From assembly GCA_900551325.1 (NCBI GenBank), contig URVM01000006.1, forward strand, positions 81,744 to 145,743: a DNA stretch of 64,000 nt, given 5' to 3'. Of the stretch, positions 1,214 to 14,751 are shown piece by piece; within the stretch, counting starts at the first letter, position 1, and each line of letters opens with the position of its first letter. Under the pieces are notes generated by a model that had not been told where the DNA came from, made no database searches, and saw only the letters and a list, made by a program, of their open reading frames with translations. Source of the DNA: an uncultured Eubacteriales bacterium. Its GTDB lineage: Bacteria > Bacillota > Clostridia > Lachnospirales > Cellulosilyticaceae. The translations under genes were made by a program, and so were the position numbers.

Positions 1214-1225
1214 GGAGGAGAATGG

Positions 1226-1618: not shown

Positions 1619-1856
1619 GTATTTAAGCATTTAAATAGTATATATTTCGTTATAATATTAAAATTTATAATATTTAGGTGGTTTATAAAAATATAAATAA
1701 TAATGATTTAATAGTAGGTATACAGACTAATTTACAAAATAAGTTTTAGATGATTTTACAGAAGAAGTACAAAATAAGGTGAAAATTAGTGTAGATAAGC
1801 GTAAAAAGAAGGATAAGGGCTTTGAAGAGATTCAATGTATTATTTATTTATAAAAT

Positions 1857-1884
1857 ATGTTAAAATATTATAATATTTTAACAT
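1857..1884. promoter_or_regulatory. 28-bp perfect palindrome (candidate operator) upstream of the 1900 ORF
   Basis: ATGTTAAAATATTA|TAATATTTTAACAT ends 5 nt before the GGGGGAG RBS. Confidence 0.5.
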
Positions 1885-1899
1885 TATAGGGGGAGAATT

Positions 1900-2550
1900 A
1901 TGGTGGAGGTATTAGAGTTTTTAGAAAGTATAGGTGGTGCATGGGAACAGGTGGGAGAAATACTAGAGATATTAATGGGAATTTATCTTTTAGTAGGTGG
2001 AATCCTTGCACTTGTACAGTGTTTCTTTGGGTATAAACTGTTAAAGTTATGGATAGCTTTAATAGGGGGAGTATTTGGTGGGAGTTTGGCTTTACTTATA
2101 GGATTGGTCCAAGGGGCAGGAGACAGAGCTTTATTTTACTTTATAGTAGGTGCAATAATTGGAGGATTTCTTGCATTTAAAGTTTATCTAATAGGTGTCT
2201 TTTTCATTGGTGTATTAGGTGGTATAATGACTGCTATTATTCTAGGAATTATGATGGAACTAGGTAGCGGAATAATAGGACTAGCATTGATACTAGGGAT
2301 AGTAGGTGGTATAGCTGTTCTTATCTTACAAAAACCGGCCATTATTATTGCAACTAGTTTAGGTACAGGTATGCAACTTGTAGGTATTATAGGCATGTTG
2401 TTGGATAATACAATGCTAGGTATACTTTTAGGTGGGATTATCACATGTATAGGTATGTGGTATCAGTTTACAAGCGGGAAGGCAAAGAAACCAGTAGTAA
2501 GTGAAGTAGCAGTTGCAGCACTCCCAGTTGTGGAGGTAGCAAGGCTATAG
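1900..2550 (+). CDS. glycine-rich multi-pass membrane protein (tentatively DUF4203/TMEM198-like)
   Basis: About 6 hydrophobic GxxxG-rich segments and a strong RBS. The last 4 codons (VARL*) are encoded by repeat copy 3. Confidence 0.6.
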   Translation: MVEVLEFLESIGGAWEQVGEILEILMGIYLLVGGILALVQCFFGYKLLKLWIALIGGVFGGSLALLIGLVQGAGDRALFYFIVGAIIGGFLAFKVYLIGVFFIGVLGGIMTAIILGIMMELGSGIIGLALILGIVGGIAVLILQKPAIIIATSLGTGMQLVGIIGMLLDNTMLGILLGGIITCIGMWYQFTSGKAKKPVVSEVAVAALPVVEVARL

Positions 2551-2601
2551 GCTGACACCTCTAGCCTAAGGTGCCAGGTACCTGACAACTTAGATATAAT
2601 T
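2537..2601 (+). repeat. REP-like repeat copy 3 (full)
   Basis: TAGCAAGGCTATAGGCTGACACCTCTAGCCTAAGGTGCCAGGTACCTGACAACTTAGATATAATT. Confidence 0.85.
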
Positions 2602-2654
2602 ATATAATAAAATTAATATAGTAGTAGTTTGTAACACAAAATAAGGAGAAGGGT

Positions 2655-4454
2655 ATGCCAAATATTTTTGAGGGATTAGAACAATTAGAAGATCAAGTGA
2701 TTAGAGAGTACATTGCCATGCTTGAGGTAGTTAATATGGGGAATGTATTTAAGGGGTATGGTACAACTGTTGCCAACAAGAGTGTTAAGTTGATTAATGG
2801 GATTGGGGATATCTTTGGAAAGAACTTTTGCTTGACTCCAAGAAAGGAAATGCGCCTTGAAGATTACATAGAAGAAAATAAGCATGCAATGGTGAGTTTA
2901 GATAGAAAGCAACTAGATGAGAGGCTGATACAGATACTGAGTGAAAAGAGTCAGAGTACATCTAAGACTAAGGATATGATTTCTGCAGAAGTCATTCAGG
3001 TAGTAGCTAATGACATGAAACTTGAAGAGAATATGACAATAGCGCAAAAGGCGGATAGCATTCATCGTCGTTATTTAGAAAAGATGCTCAGTGCCATGCA
3101 AGAACAGCTTAAAAAGCAAGATCTTTATGAAGCTAATGCAACCATCGTTGAAATAGAAAAAAATATCAACCAACTTAGTGACGCAGATAAAGAAGAGTTA
3201 AAAAAGGTATTGAATATTAATGAGCTTACAGGGAAAGAGATACGTAATGTATTGATGAAGACAGGAACACCTGCATTGATTATAGGTGCATTATCTGCTT
3301 CTGGATTTGGTGCTTTTATGGCACTTACAACAGTTATGCATGCCATATTCACTACTATATTAGGTATTACACTACCATTTGCAGTTTATACGAGTGCCAC
3401 CAGTACACTGTCCTTGTTACTTGGGCCAGCAGGGATTGCTCTTGTTGCAGGTACGGCTATTTGGCAGATTACACGAGGTAATAAAAAGCTAAGAAATGAG
3501 ATTATGGGACAAGTCATCTTTGGAGCGGTCAATGCATGTGGGGGAAGTTTTGTAGTAAAAGACAAAGAGCTCCCAAGTTATGAAGATAATGCGGAGATAT
3601 TAGAACTTATAGCAAAGAGGGATGAAGAATATAACAAATTAGTAGAGGAAAACACCTTGCTCCAAGATAAGGTGAGTTGTTTAGAACAAAAATATAAGAG
3701 GTCTCAAGAAAATATAAATACTTATAAGCAAAGAATAGTAAATGAAGTAGCTAGAAGAAATCGTTCGGAACATGAAATATCTAAGCTAAAAGATGAACAG
3801 GCGGTTATTAGTGCTCATTTTGAAAAGGCAGCTAAGGAATTGACCAGATTAGAAGCAGAGGTCAGCGCTAAAAAAGAGACTGATGAGGCAACTAAGTTAG
3901 AACTTGAAAAGGCAAAACTCTTAAATGCTTCTTATGTAAGAGATTTGAAGAAACTAGCGGATGATATTTGCTATCAAAATATGATCATTAAAGAAGCATC
4001 TAATGAAATTGAGGCAAAAACCAAGCTGATTGAAGACACAGAACTTAAGAAGTTAGAGCTTGAACAAGAGAATTTGCGGTATAAAGAAGAGATTACTTTA
4101 AAAGATCAAAAAATTGAAAAGACGCAAAAGATAAGAAGGAAAGAAATCACAGAAAAGTGGCATTTACACTACCCCAAATTTGAAATTACATCTGCAGCTA
4201 TAAGAGATGCAGTAGGTTTTTCTAAGAAGGAAGTGTGGGAAATCGAAAGGACTCTTATGGAATTACATTCTTTGAAAGACTTTAAGTCAGCAAGTATAGG
4301 GAAAATCAGAGAAAATGGTGTTGACTATGAACATATGCCATTCACCTTACCATCTGGTTTACCGGCAAGAGTACTTTATCGTATAACCAATGATTCGAAT
4401 AAGAAGGTAGTAATTGAAATGATCTATAAGCATAGTTCAAAATTCTATCAATAG
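2655..4454 (+). CDS. membrane-anchored coiled-coil protein with RelE/ParE-like C-terminal domain
   Basis: Hydrophobic helices at about aa 205-300 and a long heptad-rich, K/E-rich region at aa 310-500. The C-terminal ...LPARVLYRITNDSNKKVVIEMIYKHSSKFY resembles the RelE/ParE terminal strand pattern. Confidence 0.6.
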   Translation: MPNIFEGLEQLEDQVIREYIAMLEVVNMGNVFKGYGTTVANKSVKLINGIGDIFGKNFCLTPRKEMRLEDYIEENKHAMVSLDRKQLDERLIQILSEKSQSTSKTKDMISAEVIQVVANDMKLEENMTIAQKADSIHRRYLEKMLSAMQEQLKKQDLYEANATIVEIEKNINQLSDADKEELKKVLNINELTGKEIRNVLMKTGTPALIIGALSASGFGAFMALTTVMHAIFTTILGITLPFAVYTSATSTLSLLLGPAGIALVAGTAIWQITRGNKKLRNEIMGQVIFGAVNACGGSFVVKDKELPSYEDNAEILELIAKRDEEYNKLVEENTLLQDKVSCLEQKYKRSQENINTYKQRIVNEVARRNRSEHEISKLKDEQAVISAHFEKAAKELTRLEAEVSAKKETDEATKLELEKAKLLNASYVRDLKKLADDICYQNMIIKEASNEIEAKTKLIEDTELKKLELEQENLRYKEEITLKDQKIEKTQKIRRKEITEKWHLHYPKFEITSAAIRDAVGFSKKEVWEIERTLMELHSLKDFKSASIGKIRENGVDYEHMPFTLPSGLPARVLYRITNDSNKKVVIEMIYKHSSKFYQ

Positions 4455-4513
4455 AAGAAGGGCAGCTAACCTCCACTAAGGTGCCAGGCACTTGACAGCT
4501 TTAGACACAATCT
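4452..4513 (+). repeat. REP-like repeat copy 4 (degenerate module 1, intact module 2)
   Basis: TAGAAGAAGGGCAGCTAACCTCCACTAAGGTGCCAGGCACTTGACAGCTTTAGACACAATCT. Its TAG is the stop codon of the 2655 ORF. Confidence 0.8.
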
Positions 4514-4593
4514 GACTGTGGTATAGATAGATGAGAAGGGGAATGGTGCAAGGCATTCCTCTTTTTAAATAGTGTGATAGGAGAGTTTAGAAG

Positions 4594-5508
4594 ATGAAAG
4601 AACCAATATTAGTGATTATGGCAGCAGGTATGGGAAGTCGTTATGGTGGATTGAAACAGATAGACCCAATCACGGCAGAGGGAGAGATTATTATTGATTT
4701 CTCTATCTATGATGCCATTAAAGCAGGGTTTAAGAAAGTAGTATTAATCATCAAGGGTGAGCATGAGCAGGACTTTAGAGATGTGATTGGGAATAGATTA
4801 TCAGATTATATAGAAGTAGAATATGTGCATCAAGAGTTATATATGTTACCTGAGGGGTATGCTGTACCAGAAGGACGTACGAAACCTTGGGGTACGACTC
4901 ATGCCATTTGGTGTTGTAAAGATGTGGTGGATGCACCTTTTGTTGTACTCAATGCGGATGACTATTATGGACCAGAGGCATTTGAACATATGTACAAGCA
5001 TCTTTGTAAGATTCAAGAAAGTGGTAATTTGGAGTATGCTATGGTAGGTTACATATTAAATAATACATTGACAGACAACGGCCATGTAACACGTGGTGTG
5101 TGTCAAATAGAGAATGGTTACTTAGCAGAGATTGTAGAGCGTAAACAAATTGAGCGCCAAGATGGTGTGGTAAGATATTTTGATAAAGATAAGTGGGTAG
5201 ATGTATCACCAGATCGTCTTGTATCTATGAATATGTGGGCACTTACACCAGATGTTTTTGCACAGTTAGAAGAGGATCTTGTGGATTTCTTAGAGAGAGA
5301 AGTACCACTTGATGTGGAAAAGTCTGAATGTCTCATACCAACAACTATTGGTGAACTCATTGAAAAGGGTGAGGCAAAAGTAAAGGTGTATGCTTCACAT
5401 GATACATGGCAAGGGGTTACTTATAAGGAAGATAAGCCAGGTGTGAGGGCAGCACTTAAAGGTTTGAAAGAGGATGGATTATATCCTGAGAGGTTATGGG
5501 GAAATTAA
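4594..5508 (+). CDS. sugar-phosphate nucleotidyltransferase-like protein, paralogue 2 of 3
   Basis: Same motifs as 302..1213, with a few percent amino-acid differences and many synonymous differences. Confidence 0.85.
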   Translation: MKEPILVIMAAGMGSRYGGLKQIDPITAEGEIIIDFSIYDAIKAGFKKVVLIIKGEHEQDFRDVIGNRLSDYIEVEYVHQELYMLPEGYAVPEGRTKPWGTTHAIWCCKDVVDAPFVVLNADDYYGPEAFEHMYKHLCKIQESGNLEYAMVGYILNNTLTDNGHVTRGVCQIENGYLAEIVERKQIERQDGVVRYFDKDKWVDVSPDRLVSMNMWALTPDVFAQLEEDLVDFLEREVPLDVEKSECLIPTTIGELIEKGEAKVKVYASHDTWQGVTYKEDKPGVRAALKGLKEDGLYPERLWGN

Positions 5509-5539
5509 ATAGTTATCTTTTAAATTTGGGGGAGGTAGT

Positions 5540-6646
5540 ATGAAAATATTATTATTAGATAATGCCATTGATTCACTTGAATGGGCAGTGCGTCATTTAG
5601 AATCATTTTTAGAAAAGGATCCAGAATATATTAATCCTGATGAGAGTACTACCTATCTTAAACAAGCCATACTATGTTTAAATAGTGCATTAGAGTTGTT
5701 TTTTAAGGCAAAAATTAGTGAGATAAATCCTATTTTAATATATGATAATCTATCAACTAAGGATATGCATAAAAGTGTTTTGGAGTATTACATTAAAAAA
5801 CAGAGTGGAGAGATAGATTGTCCACTTTATGACTATGTAATCGAAAATGCAGATCTTCATACTATTGAATACAGTAAATGTATAGAACTATTTTGTGCAT
5901 TGTATTCAGTTGGTGAGGGATATAAGAATAACTTCATAGAGATTAATCAAATCAGAAATGACTTAACGCATTTAGGAATTAAGAGCAAATCAGAATACTA
6001 CAAGTTGGCAGGGCAACTAGCAGAAATTTTGTTTTTCTTACAGTATAAGTTGTTACCTTCAGTGACATATGATGAAGCAAAAATCGAACAAATATATGAT
6101 GGTATGTTTTCGATTCAATACCCATTGGCATTGGTAGAAGATAGGATATGGGCAACGATTAATATGGATAAGATAGAATGGATTTGTGAGGGGTTAAAGA
6201 AGGTTTTTGATACTTCAGAGGTGCAAGACTATGCTGTTCAAAAGAAAGTATCTGTTGAATTTGATTTAACTTTAGATGCAGAGTTTATGTATTCAGTGAT
6301 TGGTATGGAATATAAAGAAATAAGAATAAATATTGCAGCAATCTACTCCTCGGGTTCTAAGGAAGCACTGATAATTTGTGATCATGAAAGTAAAGATGGG
6401 CCTATATACGGGGTTATCGAGTTAAATACTATGGATTTAAGTGATTTATCCAAAACTAAATTTTATTTATCACAAGATAAAGATGGAACAATTATTAAAG
6501 ATTATGATAAAGAAGGTTTGTTTTGGCGAAATGATGGTAAGTATAAGAAGAGTTTTGCATATGTACCATTTAGCAAGGCTAAGCAAGTTGAATTAATTAA
6601 AAAAATAATAGATAGTATAGAAAATATTGAGATTACTAATTTATAG
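5540..6646 (+). CDS. HEPN-domain protein (Rx4H motif RNDLTH) with uncharacterised C-terminal half
   Basis: Helical N-terminal ~170 aa with R139-N-D-L-T-H144 (nt 5954..5971), the HEPN RNase signature. It lies directly downstream of nucleotidyltransferase copy 2. Confidence 0.6.
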   Translation: MKILLLDNAIDSLEWAVRHLESFLEKDPEYINPDESTTYLKQAILCLNSALELFFKAKISEINPILIYDNLSTKDMHKSVLEYYIKKQSGEIDCPLYDYVIENADLHTIEYSKCIELFCALYSVGEGYKNNFIEINQIRNDLTHLGIKSKSEYYKLAGQLAEILFFLQYKLLPSVTYDEAKIEQIYDGMFSIQYPLALVEDRIWATINMDKIEWICEGLKKVFDTSEVQDYAVQKKVSVEFDLTLDAEFMYSVIGMEYKEIRINIAAIYSSGSKEALIICDHESKDGPIYGVIELNTMDLSDLSKTKFYLSQDKDGTIIKDYDKEGLFWRNDGKYKKSFAYVPFSKAKQVELIKKIIDSIENIEITNL

Positions 6647-6647
6647 T

Positions 6648-6727
6648 TGAGTAGATAATCTAACCCACCCTCCTCAAAACACCTTGTACCCTTTATAGCT
6701 GGGGGATAACCTGGGTCTAAGAATGCA
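6648..6727 (+). repeat. Y-element copy 3 (short, divergent)
   Basis: ...ACCCTTTATAGCTGGGGGATAACCTGGGTCTAAG compared with ...ACCCTTCATACCTCCAGGATAAACTGGGTCTATG in copies 1 and 2. Confidence 0.45.
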
Positions 6728-6768
6728 TAAAATTACCCATTATAGGAATACTTTAGTAAAATAATTGA

Positions 6769-7104
6769 ATGGGTGATGGTATGAGAATATTTATTAGATT
6801 CATTACAGAGTGTATAAAAGAACTTCTATATATAGTAGGAGCATGGATAAAGGCAAACATATTAGCATTTACTGGAGTAACAGCATTTTTTGTTCTACTT
6901 GTTATTGCAATTAAGCCGATGAGCACAGTAGAAGATGTTATTGCTTGGTCGGTCTTATACATGATTTTTATCTTTGCTACGTTTGATAAGAAGCCCAATC
7001 TTCAACATACTATGGTGCAGGAGAAGGAAGAGGAGTACAAGAGGATTAACATAAAACAAAGTAATGTAAGTTTAATAAGTGTATTTAAGAATACTAAGAA
7101 ATAA
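6769..7104 (+). CDS. small membrane protein (hypothetical)
   Basis: Two to three hydrophobic helices followed by a charged tail. The start is uncertain (6769 or 6781). Confidence 0.45.
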   Translation: MGDGMRIFIRFITECIKELLYIVGAWIKANILAFTGVTAFFVLLVIAIKPMSTVEDVIAWSVLYMIFIFATFDKKPNLQHTMVQEKEEEYKRINIKQSNVSLISVFKNTKK

Positions 7105-7125
7105 GAATAGGGTCATGCCAATAGA

Positions 7126-7191
7126 TAGAAGCAAAGCTATAGGCTGCACCTCCACTAAGGTGCCAGACACCGGACAATTTAGGTACAATTT
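7126..7191 (+). repeat. REP-like repeat copy 5 (chimeric module 1: type-a left arm, type-b right arm)
   Basis: TAGAAGCAAAGCTATAGGCTGCACCTCCACTAAGGTGCCAGACACCGGACAATTTAGGTACAATTT. About 50 nt of downstream flank is shared with copies 7 and 8. Confidence 0.8.
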
Positions 7192-7261
7192 AATAGAGGG
7201 TTAATTTTGAGCCACGGATAATGATAGATTATCTTTGGAAGGTTCTAATGTTTATAATACT

Positions 7262-7284
7262 AAAAACTCCCAGTAAATAGGGAG
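7262..7284 (-). terminator. intrinsic terminator of the RelE/Phd operon
   Basis: The minus strand reads CTCCCTATTTACTGGGAGTTTTT immediately after the toxin stop codon. Confidence 0.6.
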
Positions 7285-7289
7285 CTTAG

Positions 7290-7619
7290 TTATAGGTTAT
7301 TCTTATTTTTTCGAAGAGCTGCTTTTTTGTAGACTTCATCGTCAGATCTAGCAGAGATAATAACAACTTTCATAATGCCATTAATGACTTCGGCTTTATA
7401 AACAACTCGGATGCCTAAGTCTCTAAACTTGATTTTAAGTAGTCCAGTAAGATTGGAATTTGACTTACTGCCGAGAGGTTTCCCATAACCACCTTCATTG
7501 GTGGGTAATGGATTCTGACTAACCTTACGAATACCTTTTAACACTTGTACTTTCACAGAACCATCTAATTTACGAAGATCATTCAGAGCTTCTTCTAAGA
7601 ATTCAATTTGCCATGTCAT
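7290..7619 (-). CDS. type II toxin, RelE/ParE family
   Basis: ...GKPLGSKSNSNLTGLLKIKFRDLGIRVVYKAEV...VVIISARSDDEVY matches the RelE/ParE pattern. There is an ATGA start/stop overlap with the upstream antitoxin. Confidence 0.8.
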   Translation of the reverse strand: MTWQIEFLEEALNDLRKLDGSVKVQVLKGIRKVSQNPLPTNEGGYGKPLGSKSNSNLTGLLKIKFRDLGIRVVYKAEVINGIMKVVIISARSDDEVYKKAALRKNKNNL

Positions 7620-7939
7620 TCGATTATAATATCCTCCGCATCATTAAGCTCTTTTTCACTGATGCCTAGGTTGGACATGACTGTATCAAAAGAAAGAGTG
7701 GATTCGTTTGTGCTATCGGCAAGACGCTGGGTAGCTTCAAGAAGTAGTGCATAGTCTTCTTCAATTTCAGAAAGACGTGCAAACTCTTCTGGAGAGAGAA
7801 TCACAGCAGATGGAGCGTTGTTTTTTAGAACGACAAGTTGTTTTTCAGTACGTAGTCGATCGAATATACGTGAAGCTTGGCCTTTATTAAACTGTGTAAT
7901 TGGGACTAGACATTCTAACATATTAGCTGTAAATGCCAT
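7616..7939 (-). CDS. type II antitoxin, Phd/YefM family
   Basis: VPITQFNKGQASRIFDRL...VVLKNNAPSAVILSPEEF. I placed the start at the internal ATG 7937..7939, which is preceded by GGAGGAAC; the longer track ORF (to 8002) is unlikely. Confidence 0.75.
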   Translation of the reverse strand: MAFTANMLECLVPITQFNKGQASRIFDRLRTEKQLVVLKNNAPSAVILSPEEFARLSEIEEDYALLLEATQRLADSTNESTLSFDTVMSNLGISEKELNDAEDIIIE

Positions 7940-7963
7940 ATAAGTTCCTCCGTTCTTTATTGG

Positions 7964-8002
7964 TATACTAATAGTATATGCAAATAAATAGAATTTAGTC
8001 AA
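7964..8002 (-). promoter_or_regulatory. TA operon promoter with palindromic operator
   Basis: Minus strand has TTGACT (7997..8002), an 18-nt spacer and TATACT (7973..7978). The palindrome TATACTA-A-TAGTATA (7964..7978) overlaps the -10. Confidence 0.5.
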
Positions 8003-8044
8003 TATAGTAATGTAAATATATCGTTAAATTATCATTACAATCAC

Positions 8045-8080
8045 CCAAGGCGCCGGGTGCCTGACAATTTAGAGACAATT
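8045..8080 (+). repeat. REP-like repeat copy 6 (module 2 only, variant palindrome)
   Basis: CCAAGGCGCCGGGTGCCTGACAATTTAGAGACAATT, 10 nt before full copy 7 (a BIME-like tandem). Confidence 0.7.
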
Positions 8081-8090
8081 CAAAAAAATA

Positions 8091-8156
8091 TAGCAAGGCT
8101 GACGGCTGACGCCTCCAGCCTAAGGTGCCAGGCACGTGACAACTTAGACACAATTT
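8091..8156 (+). repeat. REP-like repeat copy 7 (full)
   Basis: TAGCAAGGCTGACGGCTGACGCCTCCAGCCTAAGGTGCCAGGCACGTGACAACTTAGACACAATTT. Confidence 0.85.
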
Positions 8157-8270
8157 AATAGAGAGATAATTTTGAGCCACAGGTAATGTATGATTATTTG
8201 TGGTTATTTTTATGCAAGTTGGTTTAAAAAACAGGGAAACAGTGATACTATAATAATATAAGGTAAAAAT

Positions 8271-8756
8271 GTGAAAAGTAAGAAGGGAGTATATATGGAG
8301 GGTAGTGTTGTATTTCATGGTAGTGCGGTAGTAGTTAATAAGCCACAGATAATAGTTAGTGGATTTTATAAAGATTTTGGATATGGTTTCTACTGTACTA
8401 GTATTGAGAAACAAGCCAAGAGGTGGGCTTTAGCTAAAAGGCCAGAGCATGTTGTCAATCAATACTGTTATAAAGAAGATAGCAGTCTGAAGGTATTAAA
8501 GTTCGAACATATGACTGATGAATGGCTAGACTTTGTTGTTAACTGTAGACGAGGTATTGCTCATACTTACGATATTGTAGAGGGGCCAATGGCGGATGAT
8601 ACAATTTGGAATTATATTGAGGATTATATCGAAGGAGAAATAACAAAAGAAGCTTTTTGGGTGTTAGTAAAATTTAAATATCCAACACACCAGATTGTAT
8701 ACTGTAGTGAAGCAGCTCTAAACACACTTGAATTTGATAGCAAGGCTGAAGGCTGA
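8271..8756 (+). CDS. DUF3990-like protein, duplicated copy with its C-terminus replaced by repeat-encoded DSKAEG*
   Basis: FHGS...DFGYGFYCT...QAKRWA signature. GTG start. The 3' end runs into repeat copy 8. Confidence 0.55.
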   Translation: MKSKKGVYMEGSVVFHGSAVVVNKPQIIVSGFYKDFGYGFYCTSIEKQAKRWALAKRPEHVVNQYCYKEDSSLKVLKFEHMTDEWLDFVVNCRRGIAHTYDIVEGPMADDTIWNYIEDYIEGEITKEAFWVLVKFKYPTHQIVYCSEAALNTLEFDSKAEG

Positions 8757-8803
8757 CGCCTCCAGCCTAAGGTGCCAGGCACGTGACAACTTAGACACAA
8801 TTT
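8738..8803 (+). repeat. REP-like repeat copy 8 (full; left edge is the duplication junction)
   Basis: TAGCAAGGCTGAAGGCTGACGCCTCCAGCCTAAGGTGCCAGGCACGTGACAACTTAGACACAATTT. Confidence 0.85.
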
Positions 8804-8917
8804 AATAGAGAGATAATTTTGAGCCACAGGTAATGTATGATTATTTGTGGTTATTTTTATGCAAGTTGGTTTAAAAAACAGGGAAACAGTGATACTATAA
8901 TAATATAAGGTAAAAAT

Positions 8918-9403
8918 GTGAAAAGTAAGAAGGGAGTATATATGGAGGGTAGTGTTGTATTTCATGGTAGTGCGGTAGTAGTTAATAAGCCACAGATAAT
9001 AGTTAGTGGATTTTATAAAGATTTTGGATATGGTTTCTACTGTACTAGTATTGAGAAACAAGCCAAGAGGTGGGCTTTAGCTAAAAGGCCAGAGCATGTT
9101 GTCAATCAATACTGTTATAAAGAAGATAGCAGTCTGAAGGTATTAAAGTTCGAACATATGACTGATGAATGGCTAGACTTTGTTGTTAACTGTAGACGAG
9201 GTATTGCTCATACTTACGATATTGTAGAGGGGCCAATGGCGGATGATACAATTTGGAATTATATTGAGGATTATATCGAAGGAGAAATAACAAAAGAAGC
9301 TTTTTGGGTGTTAGTAAAATTTAAATATCCAACACACCAGATTGTATACTGTAGTGAAGCAGCTCTAAACACACTTGAATTTGAGAGGAGTTACAAATTA
9401 TGA
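8918..9403 (+). CDS. DUF3990-like protein (intact copy)
   Basis: Same signature as 8271. ATGA overlap with the downstream DUF3791-like gene. Confidence 0.7.
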   Translation: MKSKKGVYMEGSVVFHGSAVVVNKPQIIVSGFYKDFGYGFYCTSIEKQAKRWALAKRPEHVVNQYCYKEDSSLKVLKFEHMTDEWLDFVVNCRRGIAHTYDIVEGPMADDTIWNYIEDYIEGEITKEAFWVLVKFKYPTHQIVYCSEAALNTLEFERSYKL

Positions 9404-9870
9404 GAAATATATTTTTCCCAGATGAGGAGCTTACTCAAGATGACTTGTACTTTATGTGTACAATGGTTGAACGTGTAGCAAGAAAGCTGAAGGTAAGGAA
9501 TAAAGAAGTTGTCAATGCACTAGGTTATGAAGAACTATGTAAAAAGATAAGTTTAGCTGATGTTTTGCATAGTGAGAATCCAGACAAAGTAGTGGCAGAT
9601 TGGATTGAGGAGTATAGCTTAGAAGAAGGTAAATTTGATATATTAGATGTTGATAAAACATTAGTGGAAAAAGCACCATCCCCACTTCAAATAGGGAAGG
9701 TATATAGACGCCTAATAGAATATACGTTACAAGAAGGAGAAGATTATATACAAGGTATGATTAGAGTATATAATTCACCTATATGTGAGATTATTGATAA
9801 TTATAATAGTAGTGCCTATTATGAGCCAACACCTGTTATTATAAAGGGTTATTATAATAATGGTTTTTAG
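9400..9870 (+). CDS. DUF3791-like protein (usual partner of DUF3990)
   Basis: The pattern ...FMCTMVERVARKL...VLHSENPDKVVADWIEEY is recalled as DUF3791-like. Translationally coupled to the upstream gene. Its TAG stop lies in repeat copy 9. Confidence 0.6.
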   Translation: MRNIFFPDEELTQDDLYFMCTMVERVARKLKVRNKEVVNALGYEELCKKISLADVLHSENPDKVVADWIEEYSLEEGKFDILDVDKTLVEKAPSPLQIGKVYRRLIEYTLQEGEDYIQGMIRVYNSPICEIIDNYNSSAYYEPTPVIIKGYYNNGF

Positions 9871-9929
9871 GCTGAAGGTTAACGCCTCCAGCCTAAGGTG
9901 CCAGACACTTGTCAATTTAGACACAATTT
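9868..9929 (+). repeat. REP-like repeat copy 9 (full, lacks the CAA spacer)
   Basis: TAGGCTGAAGGTTAACGCCTCCAGCCTAAGGTGCCAGACACTTGTCAATTTAGACACAATTT. Confidence 0.8.
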
Positions 9930-10010
9930 GATTATGGTATAGATAGATGAGAAGGGGAATGATGTAAGGCATTCCTCTTTTTAAATAGTGTGAATAGGAG
10001 AGTTTAGAAG

Positions 10011-10940
10011 ATGAAAGAACCAATATTAGTTGTTATGGCGGCAGGTATGGGTAGTCGATATGGGAGACTTAAGCAAATAGATCCGATTACGGTAGAGGGA
10101 GAGATTATTATTGATTTTTCTATCTATGATGCCATCAAAGCAGGCTTTAAAAAGGTAGTCCTTATCATTAAAGGTGAACATGAACAGGACTTTAGAGATG
10201 TAATAGGAAACAGATTATCAGATTACATAGAAGTTGAGTATGTACATCAGGAGTTACATATGTTACCTGAAGGATATGCTGTGCCTGAAGGACGTACAAA
10301 GCCTTGGGGGACTACACATGCTATTTGGTGTTGTAAGGATGTAGTAGATGCACCTTTTGTGGTACTCAATGCAGATGATTATTATGGTCCAGAGGCATTT
10401 GAGCATATGTACAAGCATCTTTGTGAGATACAGGAAAGTGGTCAATCAGAGTATGCCATGGTGGGTTACATATTAAACAACACATTGACAGATCATGGTC
10501 ATGTGACACGTGGTGTATGTCAAATAGAGAATGGCTACTTAGCAGAGATTGTAGAGCGTAAGCAAATTGAGCGCCAAGATGGTGTGGTAAGATATTTGGA
10601 TAAAAATAAGTGGGTAGAGGTCGCACCAGATCGTCTTGTATCTATGAACATGTGGGCGTTGACAGCAGATGTTTTTACACAGTTAGAAGAGGATCTTGTG
10701 GATTTCTTGGAGCATGAAGTACCGGTTGATGTGGAAAAGTCTGAATGTCTCATTCCAACAACGATTGGTGAACTGATTCAAAAAGGTAAGGCAAGAGTAA
10801 AGATGTATGCTTCTCATGATACATGGCAAGGGGTAACCTATAAGGAAGATAAGCCAGGGGTTATGGCAACTTTGAAGCAATTGAAAGATGAGGGTATATA
10901 TCCAGAGAGGTTGTGGGGGGGAAGCTTTGGATTATTATGA
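10011..10940 (+). CDS. sugar-phosphate nucleotidyltransferase-like protein, paralogue 3 of 3 (mosaic of copies 1 and 2)
   Basis: Same motifs as the other copies. The leader 9930..10010 is nearly identical to 4514..4593. The C-terminal tail is GGSFGLL*. Confidence 0.85.
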   Translation: MKEPILVVMAAGMGSRYGRLKQIDPITVEGEIIIDFSIYDAIKAGFKKVVLIIKGEHEQDFRDVIGNRLSDYIEVEYVHQELHMLPEGYAVPEGRTKPWGTTHAIWCCKDVVDAPFVVLNADDYYGPEAFEHMYKHLCEIQESGQSEYAMVGYILNNTLTDHGHVTRGVCQIENGYLAEIVERKQIERQDGVVRYLDKNKWVEVAPDRLVSMNMWALTADVFTQLEEDLVDFLEHEVPVDVEKSECLIPTTIGELIQKGKARVKMYASHDTWQGVTYKEDKPGVMATLKQLKDEGIYPERLWGGSFGLL

Positions 10941-11043
10941 AAATGGGTTAACTAGTAAGAAAATAAATAATGTGTTAAAATAAAAAAATGTACAAAAAAG
11001 AGAAAATAATAAAGTAAATTAATAGTAAGGGAGAAATAAATAA

Positions 11044-11352
11044 ATGTGTAATACGAAATTTCTAATTGAGGTACAGTCATATAACAAGACAAAGTGCAAA
11101 CTATATAAGAATACAATAACTAATAAGTATTTTTTAGAGTACGACGGTGCTGTTTATGAGATAGATGATGAAAAGTTTGAATTGGTTGGGGATAATGGAA
11201 CCAATGTGAAAGCAAGTCAAAAGGAACCACTTGAGAGTTTACCAGTAGCACTTAAAGTGCTTTTTGAGATAAATCAATATGCAGTTATTATACATATCAA
11301 TACTCAAACAAAATCAATGATAGTAGATCAAGATTTTATTATTAAGAAGTAA
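11044..11352 (+). CDS. hypothetical 102-aa cassette protein
   Basis: GGGAG RBS. No family recognised. Followed immediately by Y-element copy 2. Confidence 0.45.
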   Translation: MCNTKFLIEVQSYNKTKCKLYKNTITNKYFLEYDGAVYEIDDEKFELVGDNGTNVKASQKEPLESLPVALKVLFEINQYAVIIHINTQTKSMIVDQDFIIKK

Positions 11353-11353
11353 A

Positions 11354-11463
11354 GATGTACTAACTCCCATTGAACCTGACAACCTAAATTAACGCTACAC
11401 ATCCAAACCTACCTCCCACCCTTCATACCACGAGGATAAACTGGGTCTATGTTGGCCATACTC
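11354..11463 (+). repeat. Y-element copy 2
   Basis: See copy 1. It ends with ...GGATAAACTGGGTCTATGTTGGCCATACTCC. Confidence 0.6.
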
Positions 11464-11565
11464 CTATAAATGGAGGTGGCCAGATATGGATGATAAGAGC
11501 TTTATTAGGCTTGAGGTTGGATTGGGTATGAGTTTAGTTGGAATTATTGGTTTGGTAGCAAGGCT

Positions 11566-11620
11566 TAGGGCTAGCGCCCCTCGTCTAAGGGGACGGGCGC
11601 CTGATAATTAATCTAGATTT
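11566..11620 (+). repeat. REP-like repeat copy 10 (degenerate)
   Basis: TAGCAAGGCTTAGGGCTAGCGCCCCTCGTCTAAGGGGACGGGCGCCTGATAATTAATCTAGATTT. The TAGCAAGGCT start and the ...CTAAGG..G.C.GGCGCCTGA.AATT frame are retained. Confidence 0.55.
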
Positions 11621-11798
11621 AGTAGGACCAAATAAAATTAGAGTTGATTTTACTACTATATAGGAAAGAAACAGCCTATTGAAAATAGCTATTGTGAATG
11701 GTAAATTTATTAAATAATACTGTATAACTAATGTTAGTATGTCCCTATCTAGGATAAACAACATGACTAGGGGGATTCCAGGAAAGAGGAATTTAAAA

Positions 11799-13400
11799 AT
11801 GAAAAAAAGAATGCTTAAAGGGATTACTTTTGGCTTGGCAAGCACTTTGCTCGTAGGCTGTGGATCAGGCTCAGTTAACTTATCTAACAACACTAGCAAA
11901 CCATCTGTAAACGCTGCTCAGAGCGAAAATACGCCTGAGTACAATTCGAAAATAAACAACACAATGAATCACACTGTAGCAGATACGGAAATAAAGTTTT
12001 CTAGAGATCCTGTATACTCCCAAGAAGTAAACAAGGTAATACGACCAGGGTATTTTGTAGAAAGTATCAGTTTGGTTGAGGAGATTACACCAACAAATGA
12101 AGGTATTAGCATAAAGCCTGACGAGGGAGAAGTTTTCTTAGTTGCAAAAATGATTTATACCAATGAATCCGAAGAGGATGTTGTCTTAGATGGACACGGC
12201 ATGGATTATGAACTAAACTACACTGAATTTAATGTAACTACTGGAATGTCGGGCAGTTCTATATGGTACGACCCTTCTACCATAAAAACAAGAGCCCACA
12301 TAGAAACAAAAGGCAACGATGGCTTTGAGGAAACAGGGAAAAGCGTTACAGTTGCTCCAAATGAAGAACGAGTGGTACATATTAGCGTCGAAATTGACGA
12401 CGAGTACCGCAAGATAGAACTTGATGATAGACGTAAAGAGAAAGAACTATATGTAGATTTTTCCTTAGGCAACTATATGCAAATAGATACCGTTTCAGTA
12501 GAATTTTTAAATGACTTTTCAGAGGAAATTGCAAAGCAAGTATTCCCACTATCAGAACTTGGATTCTCGACAATGCTTGAAAATCCTCCTGATACATATA
12601 TAGACTACATATATACGGGGGAACTTGAAGGGAAGAATCATGAAGGAAAAGACTCTGTTTTCCAATACAATCACCCATTGAATCCCATGGAAGGAGAAGT
12701 TATCTATGTGGACAATGATGGAAATAGATATGTATTAAGGCCATCTGATAAAATGTTAAAACCGGAGTGCAAGGAAGAATTATACAAAGTTTACTTAGAT
12801 AGCGACAATTGGCAATCTTTCATAAGCAAGCCTAAAAGTATGACTGATCCATATTCTGAAACGTTAAAGTACATCAACCTACACGAAAGATCAGATGGAG
12901 TAGACCGCTTCGATGTAGAGAACATGAAGTTAAACATTATGAGAGAATTCAAGTATGACATTCCATCACTAGAACCTAATGGCGATGAAATAATTACCGA
13001 GGTCAACGCTCAAACCAAAACCATATATGAACATTATACAAATTTGATAGAAGTATTTAACAAATACCTTCCGCAAAGAGGTGATAAAAATGTTCAATCT
13101 AACTTCGAGAAAGAGTCAAATGAGATAATTAAACAATTAAAGACTGACGTAGCAAACTACAAGTCAGATGCAACGTACATTACTCCATATATCAACCAAA
13201 AAGCTATAAACTCTGGCAAAACGGACATTGAGATAGCATACTTACAACAACAGATGATTAAGTACTTTGATAAAGACTCTTGTGATTTAGGTGCTTGCTC
13301 TATTGGAAATGTTGCTGTCATTATGAGCAAAATTGAGAGTTGGTACATTCCACCAGAATTAACAGTAGAGAACTGCACACTTATTCCTAAAGATAAATAG
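11799..13400 (+). CDS. lipoprotein, function unknown
   Basis: Signal peptide with lipobox LLVGC. I placed the start at MKKRMLKG (ATG 11799), which follows an AAGAGGA RBS. Confidence 0.65.
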   Translation: MKKRMLKGITFGLASTLLVGCGSGSVNLSNNTSKPSVNAAQSENTPEYNSKINNTMNHTVADTEIKFSRDPVYSQEVNKVIRPGYFVESISLVEEITPTNEGISIKPDEGEVFLVAKMIYTNESEEDVVLDGHGMDYELNYTEFNVTTGMSGSSIWYDPSTIKTRAHIETKGNDGFEETGKSVTVAPNEERVVHISVEIDDEYRKIELDDRRKEKELYVDFSLGNYMQIDTVSVEFLNDFSEEIAKQVFPLSELGFSTMLENPPDTYIDYIYTGELEGKNHEGKDSVFQYNHPLNPMEGEVIYVDNDGNRYVLRPSDKMLKPECKEELYKVYLDSDNWQSFISKPKSMTDPYSETLKYINLHERSDGVDRFDVENMKLNIMREFKYDIPSLEPNGDEIITEVNAQTKTIYEHYTNLIEVFNKYLPQRGDKNVQSNFEKESNEIIKQLKTDVANYKSDATYITPYINQKAINSGKTDIEIAYLQQQMIKYFDKDSCDLGACSIGNVAVIMSKIESWYIPPELTVENCTLIPKDK

Positions 13401-13430
13401 GAAGAGACAGGAATACGTCAATACAGAGCT

Positions 13431-13466
13431 ACAGCAAGGCTATAGGCTGATGCCTCTAGCCTAAGG
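13431..13466 (+). repeat. REP-like repeat copy 11a (module 1 only)
   Basis: ACAGCAAGGCTATAGGCTGATGCCTCTAGCCTAAGG, followed directly by copy 11b. Confidence 0.75.
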
Positions 13467-13467
13467 G

Positions 13468-13533
13468 TAGCAAGGCTCAAGGCTAGCACCCCAAGCCTAG
13501 GGGGACAGGCACCTGACAATTTACAAACAATTT
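13468..13533 (+). repeat. REP-like repeat copy 11b (full, divergent module 1)
   Basis: TAGCAAGGCTCAAGGCTAGCACCCCAAGCCTAGGGGGACAGGCACCTGACAATTTACAAACAATTT. Confidence 0.75.
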
Positions 13534-13559
13534 GATAAAGGTTTAAGAATGGTTGATGT

Positions 13560-13820
13560 GTGATACCAGAAGTATTTACACAGTTAGAAGAGGATCTTGT
13601 GGATTTCTTAGAGCATGAAGTGCCACTGGATGTGGAAAAGTTTGAGTGTCTCATTCCAACAACTATTGGTGAGCTCATTGAAAAGGATGAGGCGAAAGTA
13701 AAGGTATATGCTTCTCATGATACATGGCAAGGGGTTACTTATAAGGAAGATAAGCCAGGTGTCATGGCAGCTCTTAAAAATTTGAAAGAGGGTGGGTTAT
13801 ATCCTGAGAGATTGTGGTGA
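13560..13820 (+). pseudogene. 5'-truncated nucleotidyltransferase copy (last 86 codons only)
   Basis: Aligns with aa ~218-303 of the full copies (VFTQLEEDLVDFLEHEVPLDVEK...LYPERLW*). Homology begins about 27 nt after repeat 11b. Confidence 0.8.
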
Positions 13821-13840
13821 TAGAGGAGAGTGAAAATAAA

Positions 13841-14137
13841 ATGTCTGTAAATCAATTAAAAGTTGTTGTAAGTGTATTGAAGGAAGTTTCAGAAGGAAAT
13901 ATACCTACTAGTAAAGACTATGGGATAGAAGATAGAATGTTCTATGATATTATTGATGCTATGCAGGATGAAGGATTAATAAAAGGTGCACGTTTTAGTA
14001 GAGGTGGAGTTGGAAATCCTATATTGATTGCAATGCTGGACAGCGTTAAAATTACGATTAAAGGAATGGAGTATCTTAATCAAAATTCAACCCTTGTTAA
14101 AACGTATAAAGGGTTAAAAGTAGCAAGTGGAAGCTAA
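13841..14137 (+). CDS. YjcQ-family protein
   Basis: ...VLKEVSEGNIPTSKDYGIE...DIIDAMQDEGLIKGARFSRGG...ITIKGMEYLNQNS matches my recollection of YjcQ (PF09639). The last 5 codons (ASGS*) lie in repeat copy 12. Confidence 0.65.
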   Translation: MSVNQLKVVVSVLKEVSEGNIPTSKDYGIEDRMFYDIIDAMQDEGLIKGARFSRGGVGNPILIAMLDSVKITIKGMEYLNQNSTLVKTYKGLKVASGS

Positions 14138-14191
14138 CGCCTCCACTAAGATGCCAGGCACCTGACAATTCCTGACAATTTAGATGCAATT
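14121..14191 (+). repeat. REP-like repeat copy 12 (type-b, with an internal 10-bp tandem duplication CCTGACAATT x2)
   Basis: TAGCAAGTGGAAGCTAACGCCTCCACTAAGATGCCAGGCACCTGACAATTCCTGACAATTTAGATGCAATT. Confidence 0.8.
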
Positions 14192-14263
14192 AGATAGATG
14201 TTGAAGAATAAACCGTAGAGTATTAGAAATTGATGTGTAATTTGTTTTATTTACATAAAAGAG

Positions 14264-14450
14264 TTGACATATATCTAAGGATGAGGTATTATAGAGTTAT
14301 CAGTTAGTAAATATAAGTTCCAAAAGTTGTTTGAAAGTAATTCACATACTATTAGAGATTATATCTATTTACTACAAATATAATCTGTAATAAGATGTGA
14401 ATTTTTTTATTCTCCCCTATTACAGAGATACAAAATAGGAGGTACCGCAC
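14264..14450 (+). promoter_or_regulatory. cspA promoter (TTGACA-17-TATTAT) plus ~160-nt structured 5' UTR
   Basis: TTGACA at 14264..14269 and TATTAT at 14287..14292. The UTR contains the inverted repeat AGATTATAT...ATATAATCT. Nearly identical to 56602..56788. Confidence 0.65.
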
Positions 14451-14651
14451 ATGATGACAGGTACAGTAAAATGGTTTAACGCAGAAAAAGGATTTGGTTT
14501 TATTTCTAGAGAAGATGGAGATGACGTATTCGTACATTTCTCAGCTATCCAAGGAGATGGATTCAAATCACTTGATGAAGGTCAAAAAGTAACTTTCGAC
14601 CTTACAAAAGGGCCACGTGGCGCACAAGCAGAAAACGTACAAAAAGCTTAA
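14451..14651 (+). CDS. cspA: cold-shock protein, CspA family (copy 1)
   Basis: [17 protein letters not shown]...VFVHFSAI (RNP1/RNP2 motifs). GGAGG RBS. Confidence 0.95.
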
Positions 14652-14670
14652 TTTTAATAGAAATTAGGTA

Positions 14671-14705
14671 AAAGGCATACAGCTTAGGTTGTATGCCTTT
14701 TTTTG
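14671..14705 (+). terminator. intrinsic terminator of cspA copy 1
   Basis: AAGGCATACA-loop-TGTATGCCTT followed by TTTTT. Confidence 0.8.
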
Positions 14706-14716
14706 TGTGCGGGTTG

Positions 14717-14751
14717 ATAGTGCCAGGCACCTGACAACTTAGGCACAATTT
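14717..14751 (+). repeat. REP-like repeat copy 13 (module 2 only), overlapping the dprA stop codon
   Basis: GATAGTGCCAGGCACCTGACAACTTAGGCACAATTT. Confidence 0.8.

What the first reader, a model, noticed from the sequence alone, without database searches (positions are those of the whole stretch)
8091..9384. Perfect 647-bp tandem duplication whose junction is exactly the first base of the REP-like repeat
**Seen.** 8091..8737 and 8738..9384 are identical except for one base (C at 8103, A at 8750).

Each unit contains a full repeat copy, the leader, and the first 154 codons of the DUF3990 gene.

The novel joint is ...GAATTTGA|TAGCAAGG. The interrupted DUF3990 copy is joined precisely to the TAG that begins every full repeat copy, and it acquires a repeat-encoded tail (DSKAEG*).

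The parental flanks (AAATA|TAGC and TTTGA|GAGG) share at most one base of microhomology.

**Inference.** A recent rearrangement with one breakpoint exactly at the conserved repeat boundary is what a site-specific cleavage/joining event 5' of TAG would produce. HUH-type enzymes cut next to a hairpin-guided tetranucleotide, whereas replication slippage would not be expected to land on this boundary. This is direct in-sequence support for the repeat being recombinationally active.
Basis: partly seen in the sequence, partly recalled or inferred. Interest (0 to 1): 0.65.

Follow-up and report, generated by a model that had tools for sequence, protein, structure and literature searches.

The report
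Repeat-edge tandem duplication in cassette array
A real, strain-variable 647-bp head-to-tail duplication in a Clostridia gene-cassette array starts at the outer edge of a DNA hairpin repeat that belongs to a nearby single-strand-DNA transposase, so it is probably a footprint of that enzyme misjoining DNA, though this is not proven.

Summary
**Observation.** Confirmed.

**Is it real?**
- The junction and its SNP are in two metagenome assemblies from sister samples.
- At least four other assemblies of the same strain carry one copy.

**Context.**
- The region is a one-strand array of about 12 cassettes beside dprA, comM and an intact RAYT-like Y1/HUH gene.
- The "repeat" is bipartite. Module 1 ends the upstream cassette and module 2 starts the downstream one.
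- Natural cassette exchange maps to the hinge between the modules, not to the TAG.

**The joint.**
- It lies at the outer 5' edge of module 1, within 0-1 nt.
- A module-1-only copy at 13432 also abuts the edge of another repeat.
- The only other genome with this repeat family has a 154-nt duplicated block bounded by such edges.
- Six of eight cassette ORFs run into module 1 with no spacer.

**Reading.** The most likely cause is an off-pathway RAYT nick at the module-1 edge, resolved by a foreign 3'-OH (confidence about 0.5). A hairpin-provoked template switch is the main rival.

**Earlier notes.** This scan noted similar end-anchored duplications beside RAYTs on other DNA.

The parts
8091..8737 (+). 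Duplication unit 1: module 1, module 2, leader, and DUF3990 up to 19 nt before its stop codon
   Evidence: 646 of 647 identical to unit 2. Carries C at 8103, as the single-copy alleles L027, L030 and L079 do.
8738..9384 (+). Duplication unit 2. Its first base is the T of the junction TAG.
   Evidence: Carries A at 8750.
8730..8745 (+). Novel joint GAATTTGA|TAGCAAGG, crossover at 8736|8737 or 8737|8738
   Evidence: 1 nt of shared sequence on the left, 0 on the right. The same joint is in L028 and L032 and is absent from L027, L030 and L079.
8091..8125 (+). Module 1 (cassette 3'-end module): TAGCA, an imperfect 11-bp hairpin, then AAGG. The junction copy lies at 8738-8772.
   Evidence: Alignment A1. 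DNA folds of -11.2 kcal/mol for the C allele and -12.0 for the A allele, z about -2.5.
8126..8158 (+). Module 2 (cassette 5'-end module): GTGC-CAG-GCAC mini-hairpin followed by CTGACAAYTTAGACACAATTTRA. The second copy lies at 8773-8805.
   Evidence: Travels with the downstream cassette.
8103..8103 (+). The only difference between the units (C here, A at 8750). It lies in the module-1 stem, 13 nt from the joint.
   Evidence: A restores a base pair and is the family consensus at that column.
8175..8205 (+). Terminator-like hairpin of the leader, duplicated at 8822-8852
8295..8756 (+). Junction copy of DUF3990 (153 aa). The last 6 aa (DSKAEG) and the TGA stop are encoded by module 1.
8942..9403 (+). 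Full-length DUF3990 (153 aa) with the ancestral C-terminus ...LEFERSYKL
   Evidence: The homologue on Clostridium taeniosporum plasmid pCt3 ends ...LKYERSYSL and overlaps its partner gene in the same way.
9400..9870 (+). Partner gene (156 aa, weak DUF3791 similarity). Its stop codon is the TAG of the next module 1.
   Evidence: The pCt3 homologue is one codon longer and has its own TAA stop.
9868..9931 (+). Next repeat: module 1 at 9868-9898 (lacks CAAG) and module 2 at 9899-9931. This is the site of the hinge test.
   Evidence: L083 against the window: module 1 31/31, module 2 26/33, downstream unrelated.
8045..8090 (+). Left parental flank: a module-2-only copy plus AAAAATA
13432..13502 (+). 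Module-1-only copy joined directly to the (G)TAG edge of the full repeat that starts at 13468. Positions 13433-13466 are 100% identical to 159-192.
   Evidence: (D13)
17363..17923 (-). RAYT-like Y1/HUH gene (186 aa) with HVH and RYIHLNP motifs
   Evidence: Pfam Y1_Tnp 59.7 bits. NCBIfam REP_Tyr_transpos 76.9 bits against a cut-off of 80; the IS200 model scores 16 bits. Sequence.

Best explanation
**What it is.** The duplication is a genuine, young, strain-polymorphic rearrangement inside a RAYT-associated cassette array.

**Proposed mechanism (inferred).**
1. The RAYT-like Y1/HUH enzyme binds the module-1 hairpin on the + strand while that strand is single-stranded as the lagging-strand template.
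2. It nicks at the module's outer 5' edge (|TAG or |ATAG) and stays attached to the new 5' end as a phosphotyrosine.
3. That bond is resolved by a foreign 3'-OH ending ...GAATTTG(A), 647 nt downstream, rather than by the original 3'-OH.
4. The foreign 3'-OH is most simply the nascent leading strand at the fork. It could instead be an end made by a second, cryptic cut.
5. After one more round of replication this gives a head-to-tail duplication of everything between the two points.

**Status of the event.** It is off-pathway. The array's normal exchange point is the module 1|module 2 hinge.

**Consequence.** The event makes a complete new cassette (module 2, leader, whole DUF3990 domain, module 1) without the partner gene.

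**Shown:** the duplication, its polymorphism, the edge position, the lack of homology, the intact HUH and Tyr motifs, the strand orientation, the hinge, and the other edge joints.
**Inferred:** the nick, the enzyme responsible, and the source of the 3'-OH.
For: **The joint**
- It lies at the first conserved base of the repeat, with 1 nt of microhomology.
- The breakpoint regions show no homology beyond chance.
- The junction was recovered in two separate sample assemblies. One-copy alleles exist in otherwise identical DNA.

**The enzyme and the strand**
- The RAYT-like protein has HUH and Tyr motifs and best matches REP_Tyr_transpos.
- GC and AT skew are positive on the + strand across the whole contig, and likewise in G061. 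The hairpin strand is therefore the lagging-strand template.

**Literature**
- TnpA_REP is a monomer that cuts 5' and 3' of its hairpin at variable distance.
- It leaves a 5'-phosphotyrosine that in principle any ssDNA 3'-OH could resolve, as its authors propose; in the CST assay an added oligonucleotide's 3'-OH does so (PMC3479197; PMC8266576).

**Recurrence of edge joints**
- A module-1-only copy 100% identical to 159-192 is joined to the (G)TAG of the repeat at 13468.
- In G061 a 98%-identical 154-nt block runs from TT|GTAGC to GGATTG[TA]GCAAGG, that is, from one module-1 edge to the next.
- Six of eight cassette ORFs end at the repeat's TAG or run into module 1.
- The partner gene lacks its last codon relative to its pCt3 homologue and uses the repeat's TAG as its stop.

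**Earlier scan notes** report end-anchored duplications beside RAYTs in other phyla. These are leads only.
Against: - No read, biochemical or genetic evidence exists for a nick at this position.
- The demonstrable exchange point of the array is the hinge, not the TAG edge.
- The bases 5' of TAG are not conserved. A guide-selected cleavage site of the IS608 kind is therefore not visible there.
- Edge joints scatter over -3 to +2. Only four of five fit one position.
- The edge is defined by where conservation begins, so older "joints" at it are partly circular evidence.
- The duplication is seen in one strain lineage only, in two sister samples plus the window.
- The SNP beside the joint is of the quasipalindrome-correction type, which points to replication template switching at the hairpin.
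Confidence: 0.5

Rival explanations
1. RAYT-independent replication error. The imperfect GC-rich module-1 hairpin stalls or misleads the replisome, and a nascent strand switches template with almost no homology. This produces both the duplication and the nearby stem-perfecting base change.
For: - The only SNP lies in the hairpin stem, 13 nt from the joint.
- It converts a C·T mismatch into an A-T pair. That is the signature of quasipalindrome template-switch mutagenesis (established knowledge).
- The hairpin folds clearly better than shuffled sequence.
Against: - A template switch needs pairing of the nascent 3' end, and only 1 nt is available.
- The joint lies 5 nt outside the stem foot, at the edge of the conserved TAGCA rather than at the stem.
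- It does not explain why independent joints in the window (13466) and in G061 sit at the same edge.
Confidence: 0.24
2. Pure coincidence. An ordinary illegitimate tandem duplication happened to have one end at the repeat edge.
For: - There is only one event in one lineage.
- The landmark was chosen post hoc, and the 1-nt ambiguity widens the target.
- The AATTTGA match at the other end has no wider similarity to the repeat: 12% of random windows score as well.
Against: - My estimate is that two module-1 edges in about 1.8 kb, each hit at 2 positions, give roughly 0.2% for the left end.
- The right end lies on one of only 3 of 1063 positions preceded by AATTTRA.
- Further edge joints exist.
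Confidence: 0.12
3. Two steps. First a whole-cassette duplication, then a deletion that removed the partner gene and the end of DUF3990 up to the next repeat.
For: Cassette paralogues and small deletions ending near repeat edges exist in these arrays. One example is the 48-51-nt difference between the G061 copies.
Against: - The junction module 1 is of the 8091 type (it has CAAG, GGC and TGAC). It is not of the 9868 type that follows the partner gene.
- This route needs two events where one suffices.
- The one-copy alleles differ from the window by exactly one unit.
- It would still need a break at the TAG edge.
Confidence: 0.08
4. Assembly artefact. A loop in the assembly graph was traversed twice, or a chimeric junction was built.
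For: - Short-read metagenome assemblies cannot count the copies of a 647-bp loop.
- Both duplicated assemblies come from one project and pipeline, and the window is identical to one of them.
- Reads could not be checked.
Against: - The junction 16-mer and the junction-linked A allele must exist in reads from two different samples.
- One-copy contigs run through 8737|9385 without a break in four other assemblies, one of them 86 kb long. The graph there has no branch.
- The two units are distinguishable by the SNP.
Confidence: 0.04

Closest known systems
REPtrons: TnpA_REP (RAYT) with REP/BIME repeats, as in E. coli K-12 YafM (PMC3479197, PMC8266576)
   Same: - A small Y1/HUH protein with HUH and Tyr motifs that best matches the REP-associated model.
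- The gene of this type is single-copy.
- The cognate repeats are strand-specific imperfect hairpins preceded by a (G)TAG-containing tag.
- The known chemistry (cuts on either side of the hairpin; 5'-phosphotyrosine proposed to be resolvable by any ssDNA 3'-OH) would give exactly this kind of joint.
   Different: - There are only about 17 repeat copies. Fourteen lie in one 18-kb array, all on one strand, and separate gene cassettes. They are not hundreds of dispersed inverted pairs.
- The repeat is bipartite, with an exchange hinge.
- TAG is separated from the stem foot by CA.
- The protein scores 76.9 bits against a family cut-off of 80.
IS200/IS605 insertion sequences (IS608, ISDra2): single-strand peel-and-paste transposition
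   Same: - Hairpin-bearing left and right ends lie on one strand.
- Action on the lagging-strand template.
- A circle junction formed by joining the right end to the left end.
- Cassettes here have a module-2 start and a module-1 end that meet at a hinge preceded by AAGG, like a target or cleavage motif.
   Different: - The transposase gene is not inside the mobile unit.
- No conserved motif lies 5' of the TAG edge.
- The duplication joint is not at the hinge.
Integron cassette arrays (IntI with attC)
   Same: - A one-directional array of promoter-poor cassettes rich in toxin-antitoxin pairs.
- Each cassette ends in a folded single-strand recombination site.
- Cassette order differs between strains.
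   Different: - No IntI-type recombinase is found next to the array, and there is no attC core (GTTRRRY).
- The associated enzyme is a Y1/HUH nuclease.
- This is an analogy of form, not membership.
One-ended, read-through capture by HUH elements (IS91/ISCR, Helitrons)
   Same: A segment that begins precisely at an element end and stops at an arbitrary point in neighbouring DNA is copied.
   Different: - Those enzymes are larger rolling-circle transposases with their own ori and ter ends.
- Here the copy is a local tandem one of 647 bp.
End-anchored duplications beside RAYT genes noted earlier in this scan (e1-5075711, e1-3567966, e1-5043215)
   Same: Tandem or partial duplications whose junction lies at the outer end of a REP hairpin.
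   Different: - They come from other phyla and other repeat families, and mostly involve the RAYT gene itself.
- They are AI notes that I did not test.

Membership tests
REPtron (RAYT + REP) | Y1/HUH nuclease with an HUH motif and a catalytic Tyr | tested here: met
   Pfam Y1_Tnp 59.7 bits. HVH and RYIHLNP are present in the translation.
REPtron (RAYT + REP) | The protein belongs to the REP-associated clade rather than to IS200 transposases | tested here: inconclusive
   NF047646 REP_Tyr_transpos scores 76.9 bits, just under the cut-off of 80. The IS200 model scores 16.3 bits against a cut-off of 55. No PDB hit by sequence.
REPtron (RAYT + REP) | Single-copy, non-mobile gene flanked by its own repeats | tested here: met
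   It is the only gene of its type in the genome; the other three Y1 genes are IS200-like. Module-2 copies lie at 14717 and 17979 around dprA-comM-RAYT.
REPtron (RAYT + REP) | Repeats are palindromes preceded by a conserved GTAG-type tetranucleotide at the stem foot | tested here: inconclusive
   TAG is at least 90% conserved and G precedes it in 7 of 16 independent copies. However, CA separates it from the stem foot.
REPtron (RAYT + REP) | Many dispersed copies, often as inverted pairs (BIME/REPIN) | tested here: not met
   14 module-2 hits in the genome: 11 in the array, all on the + strand, and 3 solitary on contig C2. No inverted pairs.
REPtron (RAYT + REP) | The enzyme cleaves single-stranded repeat DNA next to the hairpin | not testable with these tools
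   Needs purified protein and oligonucleotides.
IS200/IS605 insertion sequence | Transposase gene enclosed by left and right hairpin ends, moving as a unit in several copies | tested here: not met
   The RAYT lies with comM and dprA between two same-strand module-2 halves and is single-copy.
Integron | IntI tyrosine recombinase and attC sites with a GTTRRRY core | tested here: not met
   No integrase domain among the 20 ORFs in and beside the array. The repeat consensus lacks the attC core.
Integron | One-directional cassette array with exchange at the repeat | tested here: met
   All repeats lie on the + strand. The cassette switch occurs at the module hinge between strains. Cassette order is permuted in L029.
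Slippage or microhomology-mediated tandem duplication | Several bases of identity at the two parental breakpoints | tested here: not met
   1 nt on the left and 0 on the right. The best local match of the flanks is no better than for random pairs 647 nt apart.

The most novel reading that the evidence does not exclude
The duplication is a snapshot of how this HUH-based, integron-like platform makes new cassettes.

- The RAYT fuses the 5' edge of a module-1 hairpin onto whatever 3' end lies in a gene's terminal region.
- This instantly creates a mobilisable unit of module 2, gene and module 1.
- That would explain why 6 of 8 cassette ORFs here stop at the repeat's TAG or inside module 1.
- It would also explain why the partner gene has lost its last codon to the repeat.
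- The AATTTGA at the right breakpoint would then be a preferred 3' end or a cryptic second cut site.
Probability: 0.2. Interest if true: 0.85.

Novelty: new variant of a known kind. Interest (0 to 1): 0.55.

Why it matters
- How RAYT enzymes act in cells is unresolved. The field's own statement is that the dissemination mechanism of REPs "remains to be elucidated" (PMC8266576).
- This locus offers a natural before-and-after allele pair in public data. The DNA is otherwise identical, one junction is non-homologous and lies at the edge of the enzyme's hairpin, and the enzyme gene is intact 9 kb away.
- That makes a specific, cheap test possible: cleavage mapping and strand transfer on an 80-nt oligonucleotide, plus junction PCR in a reporter with and without the catalytic Tyr.
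- If the enzyme is responsible, the locus also shows how a cassette array that is not an integron could create new cassettes.
- If the enzyme is not responsible, this is an ordinary unstable duplication.

Tried and rejected
- the first look-up used wrong minus-strand coordinates. It was corrected.
- **Wider search for the repeat family:**
  - The family-level pattern search found only G061.
  - The metagenome scan gave two short contigs, which I did not read.
  - The genome-contig scan again found only G061.
  - No strain variants of G061 or of the L083 cassette are on record.
- **RAYT homologues:** they occur in 62 of 301 genomes of the order. The one other homologue locus checked (G017, 46% identical) has no such array, so I did not generalise.
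- **RNAalifold on 15 copies:** it gave only a 3-pair consensus because of gap placement. Single-sequence DNA folds were used instead.
- **PDB sequence search with the RAYT:** no hit.
- **"Ghost repeat" at the 3' end of DUF3990:** rejected. The score is reached by 12% of random windows, and the pCt3 homologue shows the stretch is native coding sequence.
- **Module 2 as an outward promoter:** only weak 9 of 12 matches. Dropped.
- **Deriving the cut site from guide/cleavage-site complementarity** (CAA/TTG, CA/TG, G|T): no rule fitted all copies. Not claimed.
- **L029 as a clean break at 8090|8091:** rejected. 9 of 11 bases after a 2-nt gap still match module 1.
- **Polarity of the SNP:** it cannot be fixed. 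Homologous collapse of the duplication would also leave C.
- **Literature:** searches found no paper on RAYT-linked cassette arrays.
Full report
**1.

8091-8737 and 8738-9384 are each 647 nt and differ only at 8103 (C) / 8750 (A). The novel joint reads GAATTTGA|TAGCAAGG. A8090 equals A8737, so the crossover is at 8736|8737 or 8737|8738. There is no identity to the right of the breakpoints.

Local alignment of the 60-nt regions around the two parental breakpoints, direct or inverted, is no better than for random pairs 647 nt apart.

- From the GTG at 8271 the units share 155 codons plus 2 nt.
- From the likelier ATG (8295/8942, RBS AGGGAG) both genes encode 153 aa that differ only in the last six.
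- Both genes hit Pfam DUF3990 with the same score over the whole profile.

**2. It is real and polymorphic**

Exact-protein look-ups in public assemblies replaced them.

| State | Assemblies | Evidence |
|---|---|---|
| Duplicated | ERZ28586267 (SAMEA4431911, 100% identical to the window over 12.4 kb); ERZ28579743 (SAMEA4431912, identical apart from a scaffold N-gap) | Same joint and same A allele |
| One copy | ERZ27239021 (86-kb contig), ERZ27239027, ERZ1756045, Logan SRR34587198 | Otherwise identical DNA (0-2 SNPs in 12 kb), C at the SNP site |

The one-copy contigs run through the breakpoint without a break, so those assembly graphs had no branch there (inference).

A homologous gene pair lies on Clostridium taeniosporum plasmid pCt3. 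Its DUF3990 ends ...LKYERSYSL and overlaps its partner gene by ATGA. The ERSYKL copy is therefore ancestral and the DSKAEG tail is derived.

Whether today's one-copy strains are ancestral or collapsed revertants cannot be decided. Homologous loss of one unit would also leave C.

**3. Context**

Window 156-18014 is an array of about 12 cassettes. Almost all genes are on the + strand. The cassettes are separated by a repeat of about 68 nt that is always on the + strand.

The array abuts dprA (14750-15811), comM (15820-17358) and a 186-aa Y1/HUH gene (17363-17923), all on the - strand. For that Y1/HUH protein:
- It has HVH and RYIHLNP motifs.
- It scores 76.9 bits on NCBIfam REP_Tyr_transpos (cut-off 80) and only 16 bits on the IS200 model.
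- The genome's three other Y1 genes are IS200-type.

The repeat is local: 11 module-2 hits lie in the array and three solitary copies lie on contig C2.

GC and AT skew are positive on the + strand over the whole 216-kb contig. In Bacillota this marks the leading-strand sequence, so the parental + strand, which carries the hairpins, is the lagging-strand template.

**4. Anatomy of the repeat, and where cassettes really exchange**

- Module 1 (35 nt) is TAGCA, then an imperfect 10-11-bp GC-rich hairpin, then AAGG.
- Module 2 (33 nt) is a GTGC-CAG-GCAC mini-hairpin followed by CTGACAATTTAGACACAATTTRA.
- Conservation starts at the T of TAG and ends at TTTRA.

The two modules belong to different cassettes, as three observations show:
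- A Logan contig from another strain (L083) matches the window over 200/200 nt upstream and 31/31 nt of module 1. It then matches 26/33 nt in module 2 and is unrelated beyond.
- Among the three nucleotidyltransferase-led cassettes, module 1 is 64-71% identical, module 2 is 80-88%, and the leader reaches 91%.
- Half copies exist: module 2 alone at 8045, 14717 and 17979, and module 1 alone at 13432.

The array's normal exchange point is therefore the hinge CTAAGG|TGCCAG, 35 nt to the right of the duplication joint.

**5. The joint is nevertheless at a special place**

It lies at the outer 5' edge of module 1, at 0 or -1 nt. My estimate of the chance for a random breakpoint is about 0.2% (two such edges in about 1.8 kb, two positions each).

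The other breakpoint ends in AATTTGA. This is the heptamer that ends module 2 in several cassettes. Only 3 of 1063 positions in the one-copy cassette body are preceded by AATTTRA. The wider sequence does not resemble the repeat and is native coding sequence. I therefore treat this as unexplained rather than as evidence.

**6. Other joints at the same edge**

- In the window, 13433-13466 is a module-1-only copy, 100% identical to 159-192. It is joined directly to the GTAG of the full repeat at 13468.
- Among the roughly 200,000 species genomes and the JGI metagenomes searched, the repeat family occurs in only one other genome: a Cellulosilyticaceae MAG, G061 (JBOGBZ010000133.1).
  - G061 has the same locus arrangement of array, dprA, truncated comM and RAYT (with one TGA).
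  - There, a 154-nt block (L067 431-584 = 2405-2558, 98% identical) consists of module 1, module 2 and an 86-nt gene fragment.
  - On the left it begins at TT|GTAGC, joined to a truncated module 2.
  - On the right it ends at GGATTG[TA]GCAAGG, joined to a different module 1 that is only 88% like the one following the first copy.
- Six of the eight module-1 copies with an upstream ORF have no spacer.
  - The repeat's TAG is the stop codon at 1514, 4452 and 9868.
  - The ORF reads 14-19 nt into module 1 at 2537, 14121 and 8738.
- The partner gene is one codon shorter than its pCt3 homologue and borrows the repeat's TAG as its stop.

The permitted crossover positions of the five recent joints span -3 to +2 around the T. 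Four of the five are compatible with one position, 1 nt 5' of TAG.

**7. Mechanism**

Published work on E. coli TnpA_REP shows the following (PMC3479197; PMC8266576):
- The enzyme is a monomer that cuts single-stranded DNA on either side of its hairpin, at variable distance.
- It remains bound to the new 5' end as a phosphotyrosine.
- Its authors propose that any ssDNA 3'-OH could then resolve that bond; the CST assay achieves this with an added oligonucleotide.

My best reading is an off-pathway nick at the module-1 edge on the lagging-strand template. A 3'-OH 647 nt downstream then resolves it. That 3'-OH is most simply the nascent leading strand at the fork, and 647 nt is within Okazaki-fragment range (inference).

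A variant is excision and re-insertion of a 647-nt circle, using the authentic edge and a cryptic AATTTGA cut.

Either route yields a complete new cassette: module 2, a terminator-like hairpin, the leader, the whole DUF3990 domain and module 1.

**8. The SNP**

- A at 8750 restores a stem pair (-12.0 against -11.2 kcal/mol).
- A is the family consensus at that column.
- The SNP lies 13 nt from the joint.

This looks like quasipalindrome correction. It is the best argument for the rival explanation, a hairpin-provoked template switch without the enzyme.

**9. Verdict**

The duplication itself is an ordinary kind of event. Its anchoring at the edge of a RAYT hairpin, with a clean parental allele and recurrence in a second genus, makes it a useful and testable footprint.

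Earlier notes of this scan describe similar end-anchored duplications beside RAYTs on other DNA. I did not test those.

Noticed in passing
window 1514, 2537, 4452, 8738, 9868, 14121: Six of the eight module-1 copies with an upstream ORF have no spacer. The repeat's TAG is the stop codon in three. In the other three the ORF reads 14-19 nt into the hairpin module.
   Followed up: partly
L029, L080-L082 (Logan ERR13324403, SRR29999943, SRR7685259, SRR34855229): A strain about 98.6% identical has the DUF3990-partner cassette upstream of the ParE/Phd cassette. In L029 the array then abuts sequence like window 19491-19744, with no dprA-comM-RAYT block in between.
   Followed up: partly
L083 (Logan SRR34587195) 649-980: Another strain has a different cassette after the DUF3990-partner cassette. 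The switch point is at the module 1|module 2 hinge.
   Followed up: yes
L067 / L088 (G061, JBOGBZ010000133.1) 1-6800: A homologous array lies in a second genus. It holds Phd/ParE, Phd/YoeB-type, MNT/HepT and PBECR cassettes, then dprA, a truncated comM and a RAYT frame broken by a TGA. The locus looks decayed.
   Followed up: partly
window 14150-14180: The repeat copy at 14121 carries an internal 10-nt tandem duplication, CTGACAATTC|CTGACAATTT, inside module 2.
   Followed up: no
window 8175-8205, 8822-8852, 7210-7240; L083 730-760: A terminator-like hairpin plus promoter-like leader is shared by the ParE/Phd cassette, the DUF3990 cassette and a third cassette.
   Followed up: no
G000 contig C2: 256047 (-), 263621 (+), 328491 (+): Three solitary repeat copies lie outside the array. 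Two carry both modules and the third has a decayed module 1. One lies about 220 nt from an IS200-type tnpA interrupted by a TAA. Solitary copies holding both modules are hard to derive from hinge-only exchange.
   Followed up: no
window 14281-14580 and 56619-56918: A 300-nt stretch is 97% identical between two sites 42 kb apart (D9).
   Followed up: no
L089 (Clostridium taeniosporum plasmid pCt3) 1495-2171: The closest annotated relative of the DUF3990-partner pair (about 76% DNA identity) is a 5'-truncated DUF3990 remnant plus an intact partner gene on a 163-kb plasmid. No repeat follows it.
   Followed up: partly
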